A stretch of DNA of 64,000 nt, from IMG/VR virus record IMGVR_UViG_3300045988_053091, one strand, 5' to 3'. This document shows, piece by piece, positions 13,444 to 22,028 of this stretch; within the stretch, counting starts at the first letter, position 1, and every line of letters begins with the position of its first letter. A program made the translations under genes and the position numbers. A model generated the notes under the pieces. That model did not search any database and was not told where the DNA came from. It saw only the letters and a program-made list of their open reading frames with translations. Origin of the DNA: a virus.

Positions 13444-14025
13444 AGTATTACACCACAAGTTAGTGGTTAAAAATTGAAAACTTAATAGATTTTGAACCTA
13501 GTGCAGAAAGTTTGAACAGCTTGCTAGGATAACGTGGCGTGAATCTGGATGTAACCGAAGGTGCGATAGTGCTTTGGGTTGCAGGTAGGTCTTATGGTGA
13601 CATAGGAGTAACTATTAGTAAAAGCTAATATCAGTTAAGCGTTATGTGGAGTATACATGGATTGTAAGGTACAAGACTCTTGGGGGATACAATAGACGTT
13701 CCTGTGGAAAAGAATCCAAGTTAGGTGGAAGTGTGAGAAGCTTGGCAGACCTTGGAAAACTCAAAAGACTCCCTTTGACGAGAACTGTAGAAATACAGGT
13801 TTAACAAGAGACCTTGGTACAAGTAGCTTAAGTCAGCTTTTGATGAAAATATTATAAAAGACATAAGGATATATGTTCATTAATACTTTTAATAGCTGAA
13901 TGTTTAGGTGAACGTTGTTAGCCACCGTGCTAGACCATACATTAAAGGCAGAGAGAAGCTATCGGGTAGCTCCCGATGGTTCAGCCTCTCTGAGTATGTG
14001 ACCGAATGCAGTGAGTGTATATGAA

Positions 14026-14068
14026 GCAGGAAGAAAAGCCCTTAATCTATTAAGTTTTGAGTTTTTAA
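14026..14068 (+). repeat. 43-nt direct repeat, copy A1
   Basis: GCAGGAAGAAAAGCCCTTAATCTATTAAGTTTTGAGTTTTTAA, identical to 14527-14569. Confidence 0.95.
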
Positions 14069-15252: not shown

Positions 15253-15262
15253 ATAAAAAGTG

Positions 15263-15291
15263 TTGACTTTCGGTACAACACATGATACTAT
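15263..15291 (+). promoter_or_regulatory. sigma-A-type promoter
   Basis: GTGTTGACT, 17-nt spacer, TGATACTAT. Confidence 0.65.
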
Positions 15292-15301
15292 AAGTTTACA
15301 A

Positions 15302-15343
15302 GGTAAGCAGTAAGGGCTTGTAAGGTTCGAATCCTTAATTACC
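15302..15343 (+). other. tRNA minihelix-like element (acceptor-like stem plus T-arm, no anticodon arm)
   Basis: GGTAA...AAGG-TTCGAAT-CCTT..TTACC, immediately downstream of a promoter. Confidence 0.35.
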
Positions 15344-15428
15344 TCTTCCACTTTTAATAGTGGTATGTTTTAATCTCTCATTATCTTACATTTTTCGGAG
15401 GGTTGTTAGTCCCTCCCCTCCGAATCTT

Positions 15429-16929: not shown

Positions 16930-17349
16930 ATGACATATAAAGTGTTACACGGAGAGGACAGTTTAGCGCCTCTGCTATGGACATTTTTTATTAGAGAAGG
17001 TCTATCCGTGTCAGAAACAGAAAGTTATAAATGTGTTGGTCAACGAGGACTAAATGCAGATTATGTTCCACATGAATTAAGCCTTGATACACCTGTTATC
17101 TTTTATGAAATGAAGAGTACTGTAGTATTTAAATGTGTTAACGGTGTGCAGGAAAAAACACCTTGTTTATTTTTTGATACATCCGAAAAAACTTGTTGTA
17201 TTACGGAAGAACTATATGATATTCTTGAAGAACTATATGGAACTGATATTTATTTCCTAGCTAAAACACTTGACCCAGAATTAGCATTGTCCTCCGTTTA
17301 TTCAGAAGGTTGGTTATCTACTTTTATAGAGTTGAGACAGCAGGTTTAG
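16930..17349 (+). CDS. hypothetical protein
   Basis: ORF track; start moved to the second ATG, behind a GGAGGGG RBS. Confidence 0.55.
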   Translation: MTYKVLHGEDSLAPLLWTFFIREGLSVSETESYKCVGQRGLNADYVPHELSLDTPVIFYEMKSTVVFKCVNGVQEKTPCLFFDTSEKTCCITEELYDILEELYGTDIYFLAKTLDPELALSSVYSEGWLSTFIELRQQV

Positions 17350-17424
17350 CACACAATAATAAGGAGTGGTTCCTGTGAAGAAAGTATTGTCTAAATTGTA
17401 AGTATCTATTAAGGAGGACTTACA

Positions 17425-17676
17425 ATGAGTAGAAGTTACAGAAAACCCTATTACCGTTATGTTTGTATGAAGGACTCAACTATTCGAGACATAAAAAGAA
17501 TGGTTAACAGAAATTACAGGCATAAATTAAATCAAGGTCGTTTTGATGACGAAGTAACATTGACACATCATAAACGAGTAGAAGAAACTTGTTGGACATA
17601 TGACATGAAAAAATTCTATGCCCACGAGGATGATTACAAGAATAATAATTTTTATCAGAAATTGAGAAGAAAGTAG
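17425..17676 (+). CDS. hypothetical basic protein
   Basis: ORF track 83 aa; AAGGAGG RBS. Confidence 0.6.
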   Translation: MSRSYRKPYYRYVCMKDSTIRDIKRMVNRNYRHKLNQGRFDDEVTLTHHKRVEETCWTYDMKKFYAHEDDYKNNNFYQKLRRK

Positions 17677-17684
17677 GTAATATC

Positions 17685-17906
17685 TTGAAAGCAGACTATG
17701 TAGTTGCAGAAGACTGGGAAGGTATTTATCTTGATGATAAACTTCAAATAGAAGGACACAGTATACAAACAGCAGAAGCAATGAAACTTACTATTGAAAA
17801 TGAAGTAACGGAGTTAACTGTTTACGAGATTGACCAAGAGTACATGAAAGAGCTAGGTTCTCTACCCGAAAGTTTCTCTCAATTAGATTCATCAAAACTT
17901 TTTTAA
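17685..17906 (+). CDS. hypothetical acidic protein
   Basis: ORF track 73 aa; TTG start. Confidence 0.5.
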   Translation: MKADYVVAEDWEGIYLDDKLQIEGHSIQTAEAMKLTIENEVTELTVYEIDQEYMKELGSLPESFSQLDSSKLF

Positions 17907-17925
17907 ATAAATTTCTATGTAAGTG

Positions 17926-17954
17926 TTGACTTTCCTTACAAGATGCTGTATAGT
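17926..17954 (+). promoter_or_regulatory. sigma-A-type promoter for tRNA-His unit
   Basis: GTGTTGACT, 17-nt spacer, TGTATAGT; the -10 lies in the loop of an 11-bp hairpin (17932-17969). Confidence 0.65.
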
Positions 17955-17977
17955 AATTCTTGTAAGGAACACATGAT

Positions 17978-18049
17978 GGTGACTGTAGCCTAATGGTAAG
18001 GCAGTGTTCTGTGGAAACATGAATCTCAGTTCGATTCTGAGCAGTCACA
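17978..18049 (+). tRNA. tRNA-His (GTG) with encoded G-1
   Basis: G-1 then acceptor GTGACTG/CAGTCAC, anticodon arm GTGTT-CTGTGGA-AACAT. Confidence 0.9.
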
Positions 18050-18226
18050 TAAGGTTACACTTTTCCTTACTAGATTAACTTGTCCGAAAATTTTGAGGAA
18101 ATACTCTTTTAGCCTCTTTTTCGTTAAAACATATCTTAACCCATTCATAAGAAAAATGTTGATATATAAAGTGGTATTTTTCCAGAAGTGAGAAATCATA
18201 AGTAATCTAGTTTAAAAAGTGATTAT

Positions 18227-18311
18227 GCGAGAGTGTTGGAATTGGTAGACATGTGGCACTTAGAATGCCATGCCTGTGATGGGCGTGAGGGTTCGAATCC
18301 CTCCTCTTGTA
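18227..18311 (+). tRNA. tRNA-Leu (TAG), class II
   Basis: Acceptor GCGAGAG/CTCTTGT, anticodon arm TGGCA-CTTAGAA-TGCCA, long variable arm, T GAGGG-TTCGAAT-CCCTC. Confidence 0.8.
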
Positions 18312-18543
18312 TTAGGTCAACGGAAATTGACCTTTACGTTTTACATGGTTAAGTAGTTTACGTAATGAAGACTGTCCTGTTAGATTTAAGTAAAATACTT
18401 AGGTTAAAGACCGGAACAACTTACCCTTATAGTCCGGTGGTGGAGACGTTACATTTTCCGTAACTCATTTTCATTTTTTAATTGTATACTTTTGATTAGA
18501 CCCTGCCGGAAGGGTAGGGTTAGTCAAAAGAAATTCTTATGTT

Positions 18544-18891
18544 GGGGCTGTTTTGGTTTCGACTGGCGTAAGGAGTATATGAATAGCGGGCAGAGTGATG
18601 ACTTAATCATCGCAGTAAATATAACTGCTAAAAACGAAGAATTATTAGCTGTAGCCTAGTTTTAGACTAGCTACACACTTACCCCTCTAGACTAGGGTCG
18701 GTTCTACCTAGAGGACTCATTAACCGACAACGCTGAGGTAAAAGTGGATAACTCAGGAGAGGCTTTACCACTCAGTTAAGGTAATTTCAGTTATTAGTTG
18801 TAACCTTAACGTAGATTAAAACTAGTAACTACGCCCGTAGAATTTTGTATGGTTCTACGTCAACACAGGGGTTCGATTCCCCTCAGTTCCA
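18544..18891 (+). ncRNA. ssrA: tmRNA (SsrA), phage-encoded
   Basis: The 5' end GGGGCTGTTTTGGTTTCGACTGGCG and the 3' end AGGGG-TTCGATT-CCCCT-CAGTTCC-A form the tRNA-like domain. Internal tag frame is GCT AAA AAC GAA GAA TTA TTA GCT GTA GCC TAG (AKNEELLAVA), 18627-18659. Confidence 0.8.
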
Positions 18892-18896
18892 TTTTG

Positions 18897-19619
18897 TTAT
18901 TTTATATATGACCAACGGTAGCCACATGAAGTGGTTCTGCCCTCATAACCATGTACTGCTCTTGTTATATTACTAGTAGAAGTTCCGATGTATTCTGAGG
19001 CTTCTCTAACAGAATCAAATTCTTTTATAACAACAGAGGTGTCCTTATCAATCATAGCTATTCGTTTCTTTTTGGTTGATGACTCTGTAGCTAACTTTCT
19101 CATAAGTTCACTATATCTTTTAGACTTTTCGGGATTGTCATAAGCTTTAGCAGATGTAGGTAGGTCATAGTCTTTACACCATTTTTTAATAGCGTTTGAG
19201 GATACACCATAGTAGCTAGCGACTTTACTAAAAGAATCAAGCATTAGCTGATTGTAAAGCTTGTCTCTAGTTACACCATATTTTAATTCACGTTTCTTAT
19301 TAATTTCTTCTTTTGAAAGACCATTGCGTGAAGTGATTATCTGGTTGTAACCATTACCAATAGAGTTATACTTTGCAATATACTTGTTCTCGATAGAATT
19401 AAGTTCCGAATGGTTCGGTACAACTTCTAGGATTTCAAATATGAAGTTTTCCATTCCGTGTTTTCTAAATGCACGGTGTAGGGGAGTTTCGTAATCAGTA
19501 GCATTAGTATTAAAAGTACTATGTCTGTGTTCGTTCCACCTACGTTCAATATCCTTTGATTGTCCTACGTAGTGTCTATTGTTAACAATATTTGTAATTA
19601 AGTAAATTCCTTGTGTCAT
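18897..19619 (-). CDS. GIY-YIG homing endonuclease
   Basis: GIYLITNIVNNRHYVGQSKDIERRWNEH.. GIY-YIG core, with C-terminal helix-turn-helix-like repeats. Start moved to ATG 19619 behind an AAGGAG RBS; TGCTATATT -10 motif at 19653-19661. Confidence 0.85.
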   Translation of the reverse strand: MTQGIYLITNIVNNRHYVGQSKDIERRWNEHRHSTFNTNATDYETPLHRAFRKHGMENFIFEILEVVPNHSELNSIENKYIAKYNSIGNGYNQIITSRNGLSKEEINKKRELKYGVTRDKLYNQLMLDSFSKVASYYGVSSNAIKKWCKDYDLPTSAKAYDNPEKSKRYSELMRKLATESSTKKKRIAMIDKDTSVVIKEFDSVREASEYIGTSTSNITRAVHGYEGRTTSCGYRWSYIK

Positions 19620-19666
19620 GTTGTAAGTCTCCTTTTTATATGTTATACTTACAATATAGCACAAGT

Positions 19667-19698
19667 GGAGTTGTAGGGTTCAATTCCCGTCAGCTCCA
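19667..19698 (+). pseudogene. decayed duplicate of the tmRNA 3' end (T-arm plus acceptor strand)
   Basis: GGAGTTGTAGGGTTCAATTCCCGTCAGCTCCA parallels 18860-18891. CAGCTCC complements the tmRNA 5' end GGGGCTG, but the T-stem keeps only 3 pairs. Confidence 0.5.
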
Positions 19699-19862
19699 TA
19701 GACTGCCTTTGTCAAGCAGTCGAATCCTATCTAATTTTTTCATTAAATAAATATCGAATTGTGGCTGATTTCTACGGATTCAGAGCGGAGCATCCCCGCA
19801 GGTTGGGCATACTACAGTCCCCCCCATGATGCTTCATGGGTTATACATAATAAGGAGGTAAC

Positions 19863-20048
19863 ATGATGTATTTAAAATTCATTGGTTTAAACGGAAGTTT
19901 AGGTTTAGTGAAGGACAAGATATACTTTGTTACCTCTGAGATACATGAACATTATATTATTTTGAGAATACATGGTGTTCACGGTAAGACAGTAATGTGT
20001 CCGTACGAAGCATTAGAAAAAGTGTTAGAAAATTGGCAGGTCTGTTAG
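19863..20048 (+). CDS. hypothetical protein
   Basis: ORF track 61 aa; strong TAAGGAGG RBS. Confidence 0.6.
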   Translation: MMYLKFIGLNGSLGLVKDKIYFVTSEIHEHYIILRIHGVHGKTVMCPYEALEKVLENWQVC

Positions 20049-20143
20049 TATGCAGATAGTAGGGTGTGCATAAAGCCTAGGGAACAACATGCACAGAAGA
20101 TTAGGTATTGTGTACTTGACACAAACCCGCCTGCTCCCAAGAC

Positions 20144-20230
20144 GGAAGGTTACTCAAACGGTAAAGAGGCTTGGTTGGAAACCAAGTAGATGTGTAACAG
20201 CATGTGTGGGTTCGAATCCCATGCCTTCCA
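20144..20230 (+). tRNA. tRNA-Ser (GGA), class II
   Basis: Acceptor GGAAGGT/GCCTTCC, anticodon arm CTTGG-TTGGAAA-CCAAG, long variable arm, T GTGGG-TTCGAAT-CCCAT. Confidence 0.9.
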
Positions 20231-20326
20231 TTTGAAATATAAACTACTAAAGCTGTTTAAAGAGTTCGGTTTAAGTAGTTCCGGTTGGCTAGTCAACTAA
20301 CAGTACTAGTCAATCAATTTCTTTTT

Positions 20327-20413
20327 CGAGGAGTATCATAACTGGAAAAAATTGACTCTTGAAAAGTCATAGACGTGTAAAAGCGTTTGGGGGTTCGAGT
20401 CCCTCCTCCTCGG
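20327..20413 (+). tRNA. tRNA-Ser (TGA), class II, D-stem essentially unpaired
   Basis: Perfect acceptor CGAGGAG/CTCCTCG and anticodon arm TGACT-CTTGAAA-AGTCA. The D region TCATAACTGGAAAAAA has no stem. Confidence 0.6.
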
Positions 20414-20439
20414 TTCATTAAAGATAATGGAGGCTAATC

Positions 20440-20808
20440 ATGAGTTTTCGTAAAGGTAAACACAAGGAGCCTTCTAAGTGGCAAAGATTTATTAAATCAA
20501 TCATGGAAGTAGAAGGTGAAAACATGGAGGACACATTGTTTGAAAAAGCTTTTGATTCTTGGAAAGCAGGAGATAAAAGTGAAGAGGTACAACGAGTTTT
20601 ATTAGATTCTGGTTTAGAGCAGTATAAAACTGGTGGTAAGTATAATGTGGATGCTGTTAGAGAAATCTGTGAGAAAGCCCATAAAGGTGAGACTGTTTAC
20701 AGGAAAGACAAGCATATCTTACAAGATTTCTATGAATGTTTAGAATGGGAAAACTTCCATACTGAAATTGAAGCAATTGAATTGTTTACAGGAGTATCCT
20801 ATATATAG
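20440..20808 (+). CDS. hypothetical protein
   Basis: ORF track 122 aa; GGAGG RBS. Confidence 0.6.
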   Translation: MSFRKGKHKEPSKWQRFIKSIMEVEGENMEDTLFEKAFDSWKAGDKSEEVQRVLLDSGLEQYKTGGKYNVDAVREICEKAHKGETVYRKDKHILQDFYECLEWENFHTEIEAIELFTGVSYI

Positions 20809-20837
20809 TCATATTTATAAATTAGGGGGTAGTTGTT

Positions 20838-21002
20838 ATGAAATACACAGTTAAAAAAGGTGACACATTGTATTCTATTGCTAGAAAATATTATGGCAAG
20901 CCTTGGTTATGGAGACTAATTTGGTTACATGGTCAGAATAGGAATATTAAAGACCCTAATAAAATTAGAATTGGTCAAACAATTTATCTTCCGTTTAAGT
21001 AA
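20838..21002 (+). CDS. small LysM-domain protein (54 aa)
   Basis: Not in the track (under 60 aa). ATG behind a GGGGGT RBS. YTVKKGDTLYSIARKYYG...IRIGQTIYLP is a LysM motif. Confidence 0.55.
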   Translation: MKYTVKKGDTLYSIARKYYGKPWLWRLIWLHGQNRNIKDPNKIRIGQTIYLPFK

Positions 21003-21006
21003 GTAT

Positions 21007-21079
21007 ATCTCCGTAGGCTAATTGGATAAACCACAGGATTTCTAATCCCGCATTCTGAGTTCGAATCTCAGCGGAGGTG
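21007..21079 (+). tRNA. tRNA-Arg (TCT)
   Basis: Acceptor ATCTCCG/CGGAGGT, loop TTTCTAA, T CTGAG-TTCGAAT-CTCAG; one mismatch in the anticodon stem and a weak D-stem. Confidence 0.7.
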
Positions 21080-21087
21080 TTTTATAC

Positions 21088-21120
21088 GGGGCATTAGCTC
21101 AGTTGGGAGAGCGCTACCCT
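21088..21120 (+). pseudogene. 5' half of an Ala-like tRNA (G3.U70) ending two nt into the anticodon loop
   Basis: GGGGCAT-TA-GCTC-AGTTGGG-AGAGC-G-CTACC-CT. Confidence 0.65.
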
Positions 21121-21934
21121 ATTTAAATTATTTTTTAGCCAATTCGAACACTAAGATGTAGTTATGCTATATTAGTGTTCGAAGAGGTGGAAAGTATGGT
21201 TAAAGTAAGTAAAGTTTACAGTGTAAGTGATGAAGATTTTAAGCTAGTTGTTGCTAATTCTAACACAATCACAGATATTCTTTGGAAGTTAGGATACAGT
21301 AAATCTTCTGGAACAGGTAACGCCAGAAATTTAATCAAAAAGCGGATAGCTGAACTAGGCATTACCTTCCAGTCACAACCAGTCAAATCTAGCAGAATGT
21401 CAGACGAGAGCTTTTATGTTAAAGGAACTTATCGTAGTAACCTACGAGTAAGAGTTCTACAAGATGGTTTCTTAGAGTATAAATGTTCGGAATGTGGTAT
21501 AACTAGTACTTGGAACGGTAAACCGTTAACTCTACAATTAGACCACGTTGACGGGGATGCTACAAATAATGAAAAGCCGAATTTACGATGGTTATGCCCT
21601 AATTGCCATACACAAACAGAGACGTATGGGTCAAAGAACAAAGGAAGCACAAGGACTAAGCATAGAGGAACTTATGGTGAACGAGAATGTAAGTATTGCC
21701 ATAAAATGTTTACTGCCAAGAACAGAGAATCCATGTTCTGTAGCGGGCAGTGTTCTGGTAAAAGCCGTAAGAAGACTCCACCTGTTTCTAAAGAAGACCT
21801 ACTAGCTTTGTTAGAAAAGGAGTCATTTTTGTCAGTGGGTCGTAAGTTTGACGTTTCAGATAACACTGTACGTAAATGGTGTATGCGTTATGATATACCT
21901 AGTAAGTCTTCTTATTATAAAAAATAATTTAAAT
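21121..21934 (+). mobile_element. 814-bp HNH-endonuclease insertion in the tRNA anticodon loop, bounded by a perfect 16-nt inverted repeat
   Basis: ATTTAAATTATTTTTT (21121-21136) and AAAAAATAATTTAAAT (21919-21934). Only about 82 nt are non-coding. Confidence 0.7.
21196..21927 (+). CDS. HNH homing endonuclease
   Basis: LDHVDGDATNNEKPNLRWLCPNCHTQ HNH motif with flanking HTH-like regions. ATG 21196 behind a GAGGTGG RBS. -10 TGCTATATT at 21165-21173 sits between 12-bp inverted repeats. Confidence 0.85.
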   Translation: MVKVSKVYSVSDEDFKLVVANSNTITDILWKLGYSKSSGTGNARNLIKKRIAELGITFQSQPVKSSRMSDESFYVKGTYRSNLRVRVLQDGFLEYKCSECGITSTWNGKPLTLQLDHVDGDATNNEKPNLRWLCPNCHTQTETYGSKNKGSTRTKHRGTYGERECKYCHKMFTAKNRESMFCSGQCSGKSRKKTPPVSKEDLLALLEKESFLSVGRKFDVSDNTVRKWCMRYDIPSKSSYYKK

Positions 21935-21971
21935 AAGGTAGATGTCAGCGGTTCAAGTCCGCTATGCTCCA
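21935..21971 (+). pseudogene. 3' half of the Ala-like tRNA
   Basis: AA-GGTAG-ATGTC-AGCGG-TTCAAGT-CCGCT-ATGCTCC-A; GGTAG pairs with CTACC of the 5' half. Confidence 0.65.
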
Positions 21972-22028
21972 TAGCTGTACTCTGCGCAAGGTGCAGTGAA
22001 TTTAGTTACCTAGCTAGAAATTAAATAG

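What the first reader, a model, noticed from the sequence alone, without database searches (positions are those of the whole stretch)
18852..19700. GIY-YIG endonuclease gene wedged against the tmRNA 3' end and flanked by a duplicated tmRNA terminus
Seen in sequence: the functional-looking 3' end (AGGGG-TTCGATT-CCCCT-CAGTTCC-A, ending at 18891) is followed 5 nt later by a minus-strand GIY-YIG ORF (18897-19619) with its own TGCTATATT -10 motif. Immediately beyond that ORF lies a second T-arm/acceptor copy (19667-19698, GTAGGG-TTCAATT-CCCGT-CAGCTCC-A). The second copy's acceptor strand complements the tmRNA 5' end better (one wobble instead of two), but its T-stem has decayed to 3 pairs. Inference: the endonuclease cassette inserted into the 3' end of ssrA and brought or regenerated a replacement terminus, leaving the old one as a fossil. 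That is the logic used by elements that integrate into tRNA/tmRNA genes, here applied by a 0.77-kb homing endonuclease cassette.
Basis: partly seen in the sequence, partly recalled or inferred. Interest (0 to 1): 0.65.

Follow-up and report, generated by a model that had tools for sequence, protein, structure and literature searches.

The report
Homing endonuclease cassette splitting phage tmRNA terminus
A selfish 0.8-kb endonuclease gene has inserted into the last 24 bases of a phage's tmRNA gene and keeps the gene working by supplying a substitute copy of those bases, leaving the original ones stranded downstream. This trick was known for fungal mitochondrial protein genes but, in the literature I could search, not for an RNA gene in a phage.

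Summary
The window comes from an Enterococcus Schiekvirus phage. It has an intact tmRNA gene (18544-18891). Five bases later comes an antisense, catalytically intact I-TevI-like GIY-YIG gene (18897-19619). A second copy of the tmRNA T-arm/acceptor terminus lies at 19676-19699 and matches 18869-18892 at 21 of 24 bases, where chance predicts none. Cassette-free relatives show that the downstream copy is continuous with the native 3' flank, so it is the displaced original. The upstream copy belongs to a different allele family, so it looks donor-derived. The fossil's T-stem has not decayed. Its 5' strand was replaced at the insertion junction. The repeat length (23-24 nt) equals I-TevI's cleavage-to-insertion distance. 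Relatives of the endonuclease (51-95% identity) sit at the same T-stem junction in other phage tmRNA genes, in tRNA-Met, and in two tRNA genes that they simply split. The cassette also carries a 9-nt segment that pairs with the fossil's acceptor strand, forming a stable minihelix, and a conserved outward promoter. Neither has an established function. This is a new variant of known kinds: a SegB-like T-arm-associated endonuclease combined with the replacement-terminus logic of mitochondrial mobile ORFs. Cleavage and mobility remain untested.

The parts
18544..18891 (+). Phage tmRNA (ssrA) gene, intact. Its last 23 nt are the upstream (replacement) repeat.
   Evidence: ARAGORN. Rfam RF00023 at 124.9 bits, model positions 1-374. 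The acceptor and T-stem pair correctly. Compensatory acceptor and T-stem variants across 19 genomes.
18869..18892 (+). Upstream copy of the 24-nt direct repeat (T-stem GGG, T-loop, T-stem 3' strand, acceptor 3' strand, discriminator A, then T). This is the functional terminus, of the CAACAC/CCCCT allele family.
18893..18896 (.). Left junction and spacer. Every cassette in this genus reads TCCAT|TTTGTTA, whereas empty sites read TCCAT|AG.
18897..19619 (-). I-TevI-like GIY-YIG homing endonuclease gene (240 aa), antisense to the tRNA/tmRNA array.
   Evidence: Catalytic residues are invariant in the family alignment A2. At this site it is present in only 2 of the phage genomes that match the locus (3 of the 35 records; EfV12-phi1 is deposited twice), namely EfV12-phi1 and phage 113.
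19628..19634 (-). Ribosome-binding site AAGGAGA, 8 nt upstream of the ATG (ATG is the reverse complement of 19617-19619).
   Evidence: Read directly from the sequence. Phage 113 carries a ribosome-binding-site annotation at the equivalent position.
19621..19649 (+). Outward-facing sigma-70-type promoter, TTGTAA-17-TATACT with TG before the -10. It points toward the minihelix and the downstream genes and overlaps the endonuclease 5' UTR.
   Evidence: Promoter scan. Conserved in most cassettes of the family, as TTGACA-17-TATACT in L027, L029, L031 and L032.
19653..19661 (-). Extended -10 (TGCTATATT) for the endonuclease gene. It interlocks with the + strand promoter, so the two are overlapping divergent promoters.
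   Evidence: Read from the sequence. Conserved across cassettes. Not called by the consensus scan because the -35 is weak.
19665..19675 (+). Cassette-borne GTGGAGTTG plus TA. The 9-mer is complementary to the fossil's CAGCTCCAT, and TA replaces the T-stem 5' strand. This is the right end of the cassette.
19676..19699 (+). Downstream copy of the 24-nt repeat: the displaced native tmRNA terminus (the fossil), of the ACGGG/CCCGT allele family.
   Evidence: From GGGTTC onward it is identical to the cassette-free ZJGS2 terminus.
19665..19699 (+). Acceptor/T-arm-like minihelix hairpin: 9 bp, an internal loop, then a 3-bp T-stem.
   Evidence: Folding gives -17.3 kcal/mol, z = -5.5, with 0 of 200 shuffles folding as well. 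In the 46-nt context it gives -18.3 kcal/mol, z = -5.0.
19700..19862 (+). Native 3' flank of the tmRNA gene (iF6 type), up to the next ORF at 19863.
   Evidence: Alignment A1.

Best explanation
The element is a free-standing, I-TevI/SegB-like GIY-YIG homing endonuclease cassette of 807 nt (18893-19699 including the fossil, or 18869-19675 counted from the presumed cut site). It sits inside the 3' terminus of a phage tmRNA gene.

Shown:
- The cassette is bracketed by a 24-nt direct repeat of the tmRNA T-arm and acceptor terminus.
- The upstream repeat completes a structurally sound tmRNA.
- The downstream repeat is continuous with the native flank and has lost its T-stem partner strand.
- Presence or absence of the cassette is polymorphic among near-identical phages.
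- The same cassette sits in different flank haplotypes.
- Relatives of the enzyme occupy the same T-stem junction in other tmRNA and tRNA genes.

Inferred:
- The enzyme binds the end of a cassette-free tmRNA gene and cuts about 23-25 bp upstream, at the 5' side of the T-loop. This would follow I-TevI geometry and a SegB-like T-arm target.
- Double-strand-break repair then copies the donor's replacement terminus plus the cassette. The recipient's own terminus is kept, starting exactly at the break, as the downstream fossil.
- The insertion splits the recognition site, so the cassette-bearing genome would be immune, and the tmRNA stays functional without an intron.
- The fossil keeps the presumed binding half-site but has no CNNNG at the cutting distance, and it lies 15-20 bp from the endonuclease's own -10. 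It may therefore act as an autorepression operator like that of I-TevI.
- The cassette's outward promoter may restore transcription of downstream genes.
- The 9-nt segment that pairs with the fossil forms a hairpin whose function is unknown.
For: Structure and significance of the repeat.

Empty sites, and continuity of the fossil with the native flank.

Allele table:
- Every Schiekvirus fossil carries the CCCGT T-strand, while 5 of 6 cassette-bearing genomes have a CAACAC/CCCC(T/C) upstream copy.
- Fossil T-loops and acceptors reproduce known cassette-free alleles. The OBHX fossil plus flank equals the iF6 type, and the EfV12 fossil plus flank equals ZJGS2.

Function of the upstream copy: its T-stems are always perfectly paired in four different sequence versions, and the acceptor 3' strand co-varies with the 5' strand (GGGGCTG with CAG(C/T)TCC, GGGGTAG with CTACTCC).

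Hotspot: 37.5% of terminus columns vary, against 5.5% in the tmRNA body (odds ratio 10, p = 1e-6). The cassette-linked CAACAC variant costs 13-27 bits against the Rfam tmRNA model (124.9-131 versus 142.7-152.2). This is what a target-site escape variant would look like.

Enzyme: GIY-YIG with intact catalytic residues; the N-terminal domain matches the I-TevI catalytic domain structure.

Family contexts:
- Of the 11 family members whose contexts were read, 7 (from several phage lineages) lie antisense and directly 3' of a tmRNA gene. Six of these have a fossil. An eighth (P5) keeps a tmRNA-type fossil, but its left flank is cut off.
- Two lie at tRNA-Met with the same architecture.
- Two split a tRNA(CAT)-like gene and a tRNA-Ser gene.
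- Wherever a fossil or split T-arm is present, the right junction lies 2-3 nt before the T-loop.

Geometry: the repeat is 23-24 nt, and I-TevI cuts 23/25 nt from its insertion site and represses its own promoter through an uncut operator (PMC2988022). SegB's 27-bp site contains GGTTCRANTCC (PMC2330249), and SegB homologues cluster with tRNA genes (PMC13096335). Replacement-terminus logic is established for mitochondrial mobile ORFs (PMC3630166).
Against: - No cleavage, homing or transcript data exist for this enzyme.
- Cassette-free alleles identical to upstream-copy types occur (CYGL equals the phage 113 copy, SHEF13 equals the lgn_P3 copy, and 21C1 differs from the window copy by 2 nt). The upstream copy could therefore be native, with the cassette carrying the downstream copy instead.
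- In distant relatives (L027, L009) the fossil's T-stem or acceptor differs from the local gene, as if the whole minihelix travelled with the cassette.
- One relative (L029) lies next to a tmRNA gene with no fossil.
- CAACAC alleles still have a CNNNG at the -23 position, and tRNA-Met has none, so the I-TevI cleavage-motif analogy does not generalise.
- The association between CAACAC and the cassette is confounded by shared ancestry.
- The minihelix's 5' strand is not explained by this model.
Confidence: 0.78

Rival explanations
1. Mirror model. The endonuclease cassette inserted just past the intact native tmRNA gene (after ..CCAT) and carries its own T-arm/acceptor mimic, the minihelix, at its far end. 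On this view the downstream copy is cassette cargo, not the displaced native terminus, and the upstream copy is native.
For: - Upstream copies always match the local gene body, and identical termini exist in cassette-free genomes (CYGL, SHEF13).
- The left part of the fossil (GTGGAGTTG-TAGGG) is constant across cassettes.
- In L027 and L009 the fossil's acceptor or T-strand (CCCCT-CAGCTCC) differs from the local gene's.
- The tRNA-Met fossil's T-strand CCGGT resembles the tmRNA cassette's CCCGT rather than native CCCAA.
Against: - Within the genus, the fossil's T-loop, acceptor and flank reproduce specific cassette-free alleles as one continuous block. OBHX matches iF6, EfV12 matches ZJGS2, and phage 113 carries CTAC like its own 5' end.
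- Upstream and downstream copies in one genome belong to different allele families. This is as expected if one is donor-derived and one recipient-derived.
- The two models may both hold at different time depths: homing within the genus, and whole-unit transfer between genera.
Confidence: 0.12
2. Remnant of a segmental duplication. A SegB-like break led to tandem duplication of tmRNA plus endonuclease gene, and the second tmRNA copy later lost its interior. What remains is its 5' acceptor strand fused to its T-arm and 3' strand, which would be the minihelix.
For: - The fossil is preceded by a sequence resembling the gene's own 5' acceptor strand. For tRNA-Met, GGACTAATAG matches native GGACTATTAG at 9 of 10 positions. 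For tmRNA, GGAGTTG matches GGGGCTG at 5 of 7.
- SegB drives segmental amplification of tRNA-plus-segB units through homologous recombination (PMC13096335).
Against: - The junction between promoter and 5' strand (CACAA|(G)TGGA) and the following TAGGGTTCAA are the same in the tmRNA and tRNA-Met lineages. Independent deletions would not give that.
- The complementarity extends past the acceptor to the discriminator and the next base, which is not tRNA-like.
- No native upstream sequence of either gene precedes the 5' strand.
Confidence: 0.07
3. Group I intron in the tmRNA T-loop, a known gene form, with the endonuclease gene inside it. The two termini would be joined by splicing.
For: [quoted passage not shown] NCBI's family name for the protein is 'group I intron endonuclease'.
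Against: - No Rfam intron match even at E <= 1 on either strand.
- The antisense ORF fills all but about 60 nt of the insert, leaving no room for a ribozyme core.
- The upstream terminus is already complete and co-varies with the 5' end.
- The known tmRNA intron endonucleases are LAGLIDADG enzymes encoded in the sense orientation.
Confidence: 0.01
4. Integrase-type island or satellite integrated at the tmRNA 3' end, with the repeats as attL and attR.
For: Direct repeats of a tmRNA 3' end flanking foreign DNA are the hallmark of such elements (PMC11915505 notes that tmRNA genes are frequent integration sites).
Against: - The insert is 0.8 kb and encodes only the GIY-YIG enzyme. There is no integrase or recombinase ORF in 17000-22000.
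- The repeat is imperfect, and its two copies come from different allele families.
- The host is a virulent phage genome.
Confidence: 0.02

Closest known systems
T4 SegB (free-standing GIY-YIG homing endonuclease in a phage tRNA cluster)
   Same: It is a GIY-YIG enzyme without an intron, located in a phage tRNA array. SegB's 27-bp recognition site contains the T-arm motif GGTTCRANTCC (PMC2330249), and its homologues are enriched next to tRNA genes (PMC13096335). Here the cassette junction lies 2-3 nt before the T-loop in every host gene that keeps a fossil or split T-arm (tmRNA, tRNA-Met, a tRNA(CAT)-like gene and tRNA-Ser).
   Different: - SegB sits between genes and cuts a neighbouring tRNA gene. 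It has no flanking duplication and restores no gene terminus.
- Here the cassette lies inside the gene terminus, antisense, bracketed by a 24-nt repeat, and the main target is tmRNA.
- Sequence similarity is closer to I-TevI-type proteins, and orthology with SegB was not tested.
I-TevI (td intron endonuclease of T4)
   Same: - Same domain plan and size (240 versus 245 aa), about 29% identity along the whole length in tblastn.
- The catalytic domain matches 1MK0.
- The repeat length of 23-24 nt equals I-TevI's 23/25-nt distance from cleavage site to insertion site.
- A remnant of the target lies next to the enzyme's own promoter, like the I-TevI operator (PMC2988022).
   Different: - There is no intron. 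The job of the intron, keeping the host gene intact, is done by a duplicated terminus.
- The CNNNG rule does not hold at the tRNA-Met site.
- Autorepression here is only an inference.
Fungal mitochondrial mobile ORFs with replacement C-termini (Allomyces atp6; Glomus atp6, atp9, cox2, nad3)
   Same: An endonuclease ORF (GIY-YIG in the atp9 case) inserted near a gene's 3' end brings a foreign copy of the terminal segment, which is the one used. The native terminal segment is left downstream as a duplicate (PMC3630166).
   Different: - Those targets are protein-coding, and the ORF is often fused in frame and co-oriented with the gene.
- Here the target is a structured RNA, the segment is only 24 nt, the ORF is antisense with its own promoters, and the setting is a virulent phage.
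Integrase-mediated islands and prophages at tRNA/tmRNA 3' ends
   Same: The outcome is the same: the element supplies the 3' end of the gene, and the displaced end sits at the far junction.
   Different: No integrase and no site-specific recombination are involved. Spread would be by double-strand-break repair between co-infecting phages.
Group I introns in the tmRNA T-loop
   Same: A mobile element targets the same few nucleotides of the same gene (PMC11915505).
   Different: No ribozyme is present, so the gene is not interrupted at the RNA level.

Membership tests
GIY-YIG homing endonucleases (I-TevI-like, TIGR01453) | N-terminal GIY-YIG catalytic domain with the conserved Tyr, Tyr, Arg, Glu and Asn residues | tested here: met
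   Pfam PF01541 at 1.4e-14. TIGR01453 at 108.4 bits against a cut-off of 56. 1MK0 at 2.9e-11. Y6, Y17, G19, R27, H31, E77 and N92 are invariant in 15 sequences.
GIY-YIG homing endonucleases (I-TevI-like, TIGR01453) | C-terminal modular DNA-binding region (NUMOD / helix-turn-helix) | tested here: inconclusive
   NUMOD1 scores 20.8 bits and I-HmuI_NUMOD-like 17.8 bits, both below their curated cut-offs. The TIGR01453 match does span residues 4-224.
GIY-YIG homing endonucleases (I-TevI-like, TIGR01453) | Presence/absence polymorphism at an otherwise conserved locus in close relatives | tested here: met
   Three of the 35 matching phage records carry it, from 2 phages. The flanks are 95-99% identical in most records. 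The same cassette occurs in three downstream-flank types and two acceptor types.
GIY-YIG homing endonucleases (I-TevI-like, TIGR01453) | Site-specific cleavage of the cassette-free allele, and preferential inheritance in crosses | not testable with these tools
   This needs enzyme assays and mixed infections.
Free-standing (intronless) homing endonuclease genes of phages (seg/mob type) | Not embedded in an intron or intein | tested here: met
   No Rfam intron at E <= 1. The ORF is antisense to the host gene.
Free-standing (intronless) homing endonuclease genes of phages (seg/mob type) | Cleavage site lies hundreds to thousands of bp from the gene's insertion site (PMC2988022) | tested here: not met
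   The junctions imply a break 23-24 bp from the insertion point. This is an inference from junction positions, not a mapped cut.
SegB-like T-arm-targeting endonucleases | Located in a phage tRNA gene cluster, with a target containing GGTTCRANTCC | tested here: inconclusive
   Location is met: the window has 20 tRNA/tmRNA genes and 24 T-arm motifs. The target is inferred only from junctions that lie 2-3 nt before the T-loop in four different host genes.
SegB-like T-arm-targeting endonucleases | Orthology with T4 SegB | not tested
   Only a weak SegE_GIY-YIG Pfam hit, below its cut-off. The best full-length coliphage matches are I-TevI-type.
Intron-form tmRNA genes (group I intron in the T-loop) | Group I ribozyme core between the two T-loop halves | tested here: not met
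   Only about 60 nt of the insert is not ORF.
Integrase-borne elements at tmRNA/tRNA 3' ends | Tyrosine or serine recombinase gene in the element | tested here: not met
   The only ORF in the insert is the GIY-YIG gene.
Mobile endonuclease ORFs with replacement gene terminus (mitochondrial mORF type) | Endonuclease ORF flanked by two copies of the host gene's terminal segment, where the proximal copy is used and is foreign, and the distal copy is native | tested here: met
   That the proximal copy is foreign is inferred from allele families (CAACAC/CCCCT against CCCGT).
Mobile endonuclease ORFs with replacement gene terminus (mitochondrial mORF type) | Host gene is protein-coding and the ORF is co-oriented or fused with it | tested here: not met
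   The host gene is an RNA gene and the ORF is antisense.
tmRNA (RF00023) | Full-length match with tRNA-like domain, tag reading frame and G3.U70 | tested here: met
   124.9 bits against a gathering score of 47. Tag AKNEELLAVA. The acceptor pairing includes G3.U.

The most novel reading that the evidence does not exclude
The downstream copy may not be a dead fossil. It may be a working part of a self-contained 'gene-sparing' homing cassette. In this reading, the cassette-encoded 9-mer and the retained terminus together form an acceptor/T-arm minihelix placed directly after a conserved outward promoter and beside the endonuclease's own -10. This module would serve as one or more of the following:
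- the enzyme's uncleavable operator, giving autorepression and a switch between two interlocked promoters;
- a transcribed tRNA-like 5' module that RNase P or RNase Z could process, or that shields the spare acceptor strand from mispairing with the tmRNA 5' end;
- the right-hand homology arm that begins exactly at the break.

If so, this would be a compact alternative to introns and inteins that lets a homing endonuclease colonise structured RNA genes and move among tRNA-like genes.
Probability: 0.3. Interest if true: 0.72.

Novelty: new variant of a known kind. Interest (0 to 1): 0.58.

Why it matters
Homing endonucleases are thought to survive inside essential genes only by hiding in introns or inteins, or else by sitting between genes and cutting at a distance. 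This locus shows a third route applied to a structured RNA gene. The insertion lies within 24 bp of the presumed cut, and the gene is kept whole by a carried replacement terminus.

It links three literatures: SegB recognition of the T-arm, the I-TevI ruler and operator, and mitochondrial replacement C-termini. It also offers a possible explanation for why the last 32 nt of an otherwise 98-99% conserved phage tmRNA are hypervariable, including variants that weaken the RNA. That pattern suggests an arms race between a selfish nuclease and an RNA under structural constraint.

There are practical consequences too. The fossil and the split tRNA genes are missed or mis-annotated by standard tools. 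These Schiekvirus phages are phage-therapy candidates, and this locus recombines during co-infection.

Tried and rejected
1. Group I intron: Rfam searches at the gathering threshold and at E <= 1 over 18400-20000, and over four related loci, gave no intron match.
2. Exact-pattern scan of IMG/VR for the promoter-plus-fossil motif: 0 hits. A tmRNA-body pattern gave only 2 viral and 4 metagenome loci.
3. Profile-guided scan of IMG/VR with the endonuclease family: the 80 loci kept were all distant (about 30% identity over the full length). Only 12 had a T-loop motif within 220 nt upstream of the gene, and 10 of those were in sense orientation, so the antisense-plus-fossil architecture is confined to the close subfamily.
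4. Snap-back (fold-back) synthesis at the break as the origin of the 9-mer: it predicts TGGAGCTGAC-GGG, but TGGAGTTGTA-GGG is observed. The acceptor part fits, but the outer T-stem positions do not, in either lineage, so the idea is unproven and not adopted.
5. Origin of the 9-mer from another tRNA's 5' end: no gene with GGAG(C/T)T(G/A)TAG exists in any fetched locus apart from the fossils themselves.
6. I-TevI CNNNG rule as the immunity determinant: cassette-linked CAACAC alleles keep a CNNNG at -23, and tRNA-Met has none, so the rule is not general.
7. Terminator scan: nothing lies between the tmRNA gene and the endonuclease stop codon in the window, unlike the tRNA-Met cassettes, which carry a bidirectional terminator.
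8. Literature: no paper in the held library couples tmRNA with a GIY-YIG or free-standing endonuclease in phages.
Full report
**What the window is.** The region matches Enterococcus phages of the genus Schiekvirus (Herelleviridae). The closest is EfV12-phi1, at 98.3% identity over the locus. It lies in a tRNA array of 19 tRNA genes, one tmRNA gene and a ROOL RNA.

**Checking the observation.**
- The tmRNA gene spans 18544-18891 (ARAGORN, tag AKNEELLAVA; Rfam 124.9 bits, full length).
- Its T-stem AGGGG/CCCCU is perfect. Its acceptor GGGGCUG/CAGUUCC has G3.U and G4.U.
- After 5 nt, a 240-aa ORF runs on the minus strand (18897-19619).
- The ORF encodes a GIY-YIG endonuclease: Pfam 1.4e-14, TIGR01453 108 bits, and a match to the I-TevI catalytic domain structure 1MK0 at 2.9e-11. 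All catalytic residues are invariant in 15 relatives.
- The second terminus is real. GGGTTCAATTCCCGTCAGCTCCAT (19676-19699) matches 18869-18892 with 3 mismatches. These are the only two matches in 64 kb, and none is expected by chance.
- Its acceptor strand fits the tmRNA 5' end with only the G3.U wobble.

**Which copy is native.** I fetched the locus from 16 cassette-free sources (phage genomes and metagenome contigs) and from several cassette-bearing genomes and contigs.
- Every empty site has one terminus followed by CCAT|AG....
- That flank is exactly what follows the downstream copy in cassette-bearing genomes. The window and the OBHX contig have the iF6-type flank. EfV12, phage 113 and lgn_P3 have the 21C1/Bop type.
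- The EfV12 fossil plus flank is identical to the cassette-free ZJGS2 terminus plus flank. The OBHX fossil plus flank is identical to iF6.
- The left junction is always TCCAT|TTTGTTA.
- So the downstream copy is the displaced native terminus. Its T-stem is short because the two bases 5' of GGG are cassette sequence (TA). The 3' strand CCCGT is intact, so this is not mutational decay.

**Is the upstream copy brought in?**
- In one genome the two copies belong to different allele families. All Schiekvirus fossils are of the ACGGG/CCCGT family.
- Five of six cassette-bearing genomes have a CAACAC-(A/G)GGGG...CCCC(T/C) upstream copy.
- That family is rare among cassette-free genomes (3 of 14 aligned). 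It scores 13-27 bits lower on the tmRNA model because GGAC becomes ACAC in helix 2a: 124.9-131 bits against 142.7-152.2.
- The last 32 nt are 37.5% variable, against 5.5% for the tmRNA body (odds ratio 10, p = 1e-6).
- Yet every upstream copy keeps a perfect T-stem in four sequence versions, and its acceptor strand co-varies with the 5' strand (CTG with CAG, TAG with CTA).
- I read this as a functional RNA end under conflicting pressure, with a donor-type, possibly cleavage-resistant terminus travelling with the cassette.
- The caveat is real. Cassette-free alleles identical to upstream-copy types exist (CYGL, SHEF13, and nearly 21C1/SHEF16). They could be donors' ancestors, or scars of cassette loss by recombination between the repeats. 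21C1 is what a crossover within TCAG would give, apart from one T-loop base.

**The endonuclease family.** A search of 5.8 billion proteins found 14 relatives at 51-95% identity, and I read the contexts of ten of them. Together with the ZJGS2 paralogue found in the phage collection, that gives 11 members.
- Seven lie antisense and directly 3' of a tmRNA gene, in several phage lineages with different tag peptides. One of these tmRNA genes is seen only by Rfam (129 bits). Six of the seven have a fossil, and one (L029) has none.
- One further member (P5, L031) keeps a tmRNA-type fossil, but its contig is too short on the other side to show the gene.
- Two lie 3' of tRNA-Met (ZJGS2 and L034) with the same design: intact tRNA, terminator, antisense ORF, promoter, fossil, then the native tRNA-Met flank.
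- Two (L028, L033) split a tRNA(CAT)-like gene and a tRNA-Ser gene with no restoration.
- Wherever a fossil or split T-arm is present, the promoter-proximal junction lies 2-3 nt before the T-loop.
- This consistency across four kinds of host gene is the main evidence that the T-arm is the site of breakage.

**Mechanistic frame from known systems.**
- T4 SegB, a GIY-YIG enzyme in a tRNA cluster, recognises 27 bp that include GGTTCRANTCC (PMC2330249). Its homologues are enriched near tRNA genes and provoke T-arm breaks and recombination (PMC13096335).
- I-TevI is the closest characterised homologue I could identify (about 29% identity along the whole length). It binds at the insertion site and cuts 23/25 nt upstream. 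It also represses its own promoter through an operator that resembles the homing site but lacks a properly spaced CXXXG (PMC2988022).
- Here the repeat is 23-24 nt. In iF6-type DNA a CACG|G motif puts a top-strand cut exactly 23 nt from the left junction.
- The fossil keeps the distal 23 nt plus flank but has no C-N3-G at that distance. It lies 15-20 bp from the enzyme's -10.
- The proposal is therefore as follows. The enzyme cuts at the T-stem. The left end is repaired from the donor's gene, and repair copies the donor's terminus and the cassette. The right end, starting at GGTTC, pairs at once with the donor's fossil.
- The recognition site is thereby split, which would give immunity, and the tmRNA remains whole. 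All of this is inference.
- The CNNNG detail does not carry over to tRNA-Met or to CAACAC alleles.

- First, the 9 nt before the fossil (GTGGAGTTG, 19665-19673) pair with CAGCTCCAT, giving a hairpin of -17.3 kcal/mol (z = -5.5).
  - The equivalent segment in the tRNA-Met lineage is TGGACTAA, which pairs with TAGTCCA. Two base pairs are therefore exchanged on both sides between the lineages.
  - Hairpins are significant in 7 of 10 sequences folded (z from -3.2 to -5.9) and marginal in one more, the P2 fossil (z = -2.0). No hairpin forms in the P5 fossil or in the split-tRNA lineages P9/P10.
  - Within the tmRNA lineage the 9-mer is nearly constant. It tolerates one mismatch where the local acceptor is CTAC or CATC, so it belongs to the cassette.
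  - Pairing extends past the acceptor to the discriminator and the next base, which is unlike a tRNA.
  - Its origin and role remain unexplained. Candidates are a selected hairpin, a relic of a whole-gene copy, or templated repair synthesis.
- Second, a + strand promoter (TTGTAA-17-TATACT with TG, 19621-19649) points out of the cassette toward the minihelix.
  - It is consensus-like in most cassettes, TTGACA-17-TATACT in four of them.
  - It interlocks with the minus-strand TGCTATATT, so RNA polymerase probably cannot occupy both at once.

**Rivals.**
- A group I intron is excluded (there is no room for a ribozyme).
- An integrase element is excluded because there is no recombinase.
- The mirror model (cassette inserted after an intact gene and carrying its own mimic) and the segmental-duplication-relic model each explain some facts. 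These include the constant left half of the fossil, fossils in L027 and L009 that differ from the local gene, and the resemblance to 5' acceptor strands. Neither explains the allele-specific continuity of fossil and flank within the genus.

**Novelty.** The components are known, and so is the replacement-terminus logic, which has been described for fungal mitochondrial protein genes (PMC3630166). I found no report of this logic for an RNA gene, for tmRNA, or in a phage. I rate it a new variant of a known kind, of moderate to good interest. Interest would be higher if the minihelix-and-promoter module proves functional.

Noticed in passing
window 21089-21975: A tRNA-Ala-like gene is interrupted in its anticodon loop by about 810 nt that carry the + strand HNH ORF 21175-21927. 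Its features are acceptor GGGGCAT/ATGCTCC with G3.U70, a normal D-arm, T-arm AGCGG-TTCAAGT-CCGCT and anticodon stem CTACC/GGTAG. The insert is bounded by a 24-nt, 96% inverted repeat (21114-21137 / 21918-21941) that extends the anticodon stem. ARAGORN and Rfam do not call the gene, and no group I intron is found at E <= 1. Relatives L009-L011 have an intact tRNA-Ala(tgc) after tRNA-Arg(tct). This is a second, different way for an endonuclease gene to sit in a tRNA-like gene in the same window.
   Followed up: partly
L028 (about 1350-2310 in tRNA sense) and L033: Two endonucleases, each 57-59% identical to the window's, split a tRNA(CAT)-like gene and a tRNA-Ser(UGA) gene. The 5' part of the tRNA lies on one side of the antisense ORF, and the T-loop plus acceptor 3' strand lies on the other. 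There is no replacement terminus and no hairpin. The 5' and 3' acceptor strands still match each other (GGACCTT/AAGGTCC and GGAGGAT/ATCCTCC).
   Followed up: partly
L002, L003, L004, L005, directly after the tmRNA gene (e.g. L002 1096-1230): Many relatives, though not this window, carry an uncalled long tRNA-like gene 2 nt after the tmRNA gene. It runs from TCACTGTGGCGGAATAGGTAGACGC to GCAAGGTGCAAATCCTTGCCAGTGACA and has an internal segment of variable length (two size classes). ARAGORN does not call it. VRE9 phages have a tRNA-Tyr annotated at this place.
   Followed up: no
window 15262-15345: A promoter-like TTGACT-17-TACTAT is followed by a short tRNA-like unit: acceptor-like AGGTAA/TTACCT, a 13-14-nt spacer, and a perfect T-arm TAAGG-TTCGAAT-CCTTA. 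It lies between tRNA-Met and tRNA-Trp and is conserved in ZJGS2 and L034. The fold is not significant on its own (z = -1.2).
   Followed up: partly
window 14636, 16250, 16762, 16802, 22074, 22276, 23437: These are T-arm motifs (GGTTCRANTCC) on the + strand that lie outside ARAGORN-called tRNA genes. Several sit in tRNA-like contexts with odd acceptor or anticodon arms. In all there are 24 motif matches in the window, against 0.19 expected. If the endonuclease recognises the T-arm as SegB does, each of these would be a potential target.
   Followed up: no
window 13473-14059: A full-length ROOL RNA (Rfam RF03087, 267.9 bits) lies inside the tRNA array. One is also present in L028.
   Followed up: no
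window 18860-18892 and homologous positions in 19 genomes: The tmRNA terminus is a polymorphism hotspot, with six haplotypes and 37.5% variable columns against 5.5% in the body. The C-to-T change that creates G4.U (CAGTTCC) recurs in cassette-bearing genomes of two phage lineages and in cassette-free SHEF13. L027's functional copy even has a U.U mismatch in the acceptor.
   Followed up: partly
window 18892-18899: No terminator separates the convergent tmRNA gene and the endonuclease gene. The endonuclease mRNA would therefore run antisense into the tmRNA gene, and tmRNA read-through would be antisense to the endonuclease mRNA. The tRNA-Met cassettes instead carry a bidirectional terminator at this position.
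   Followed up: no
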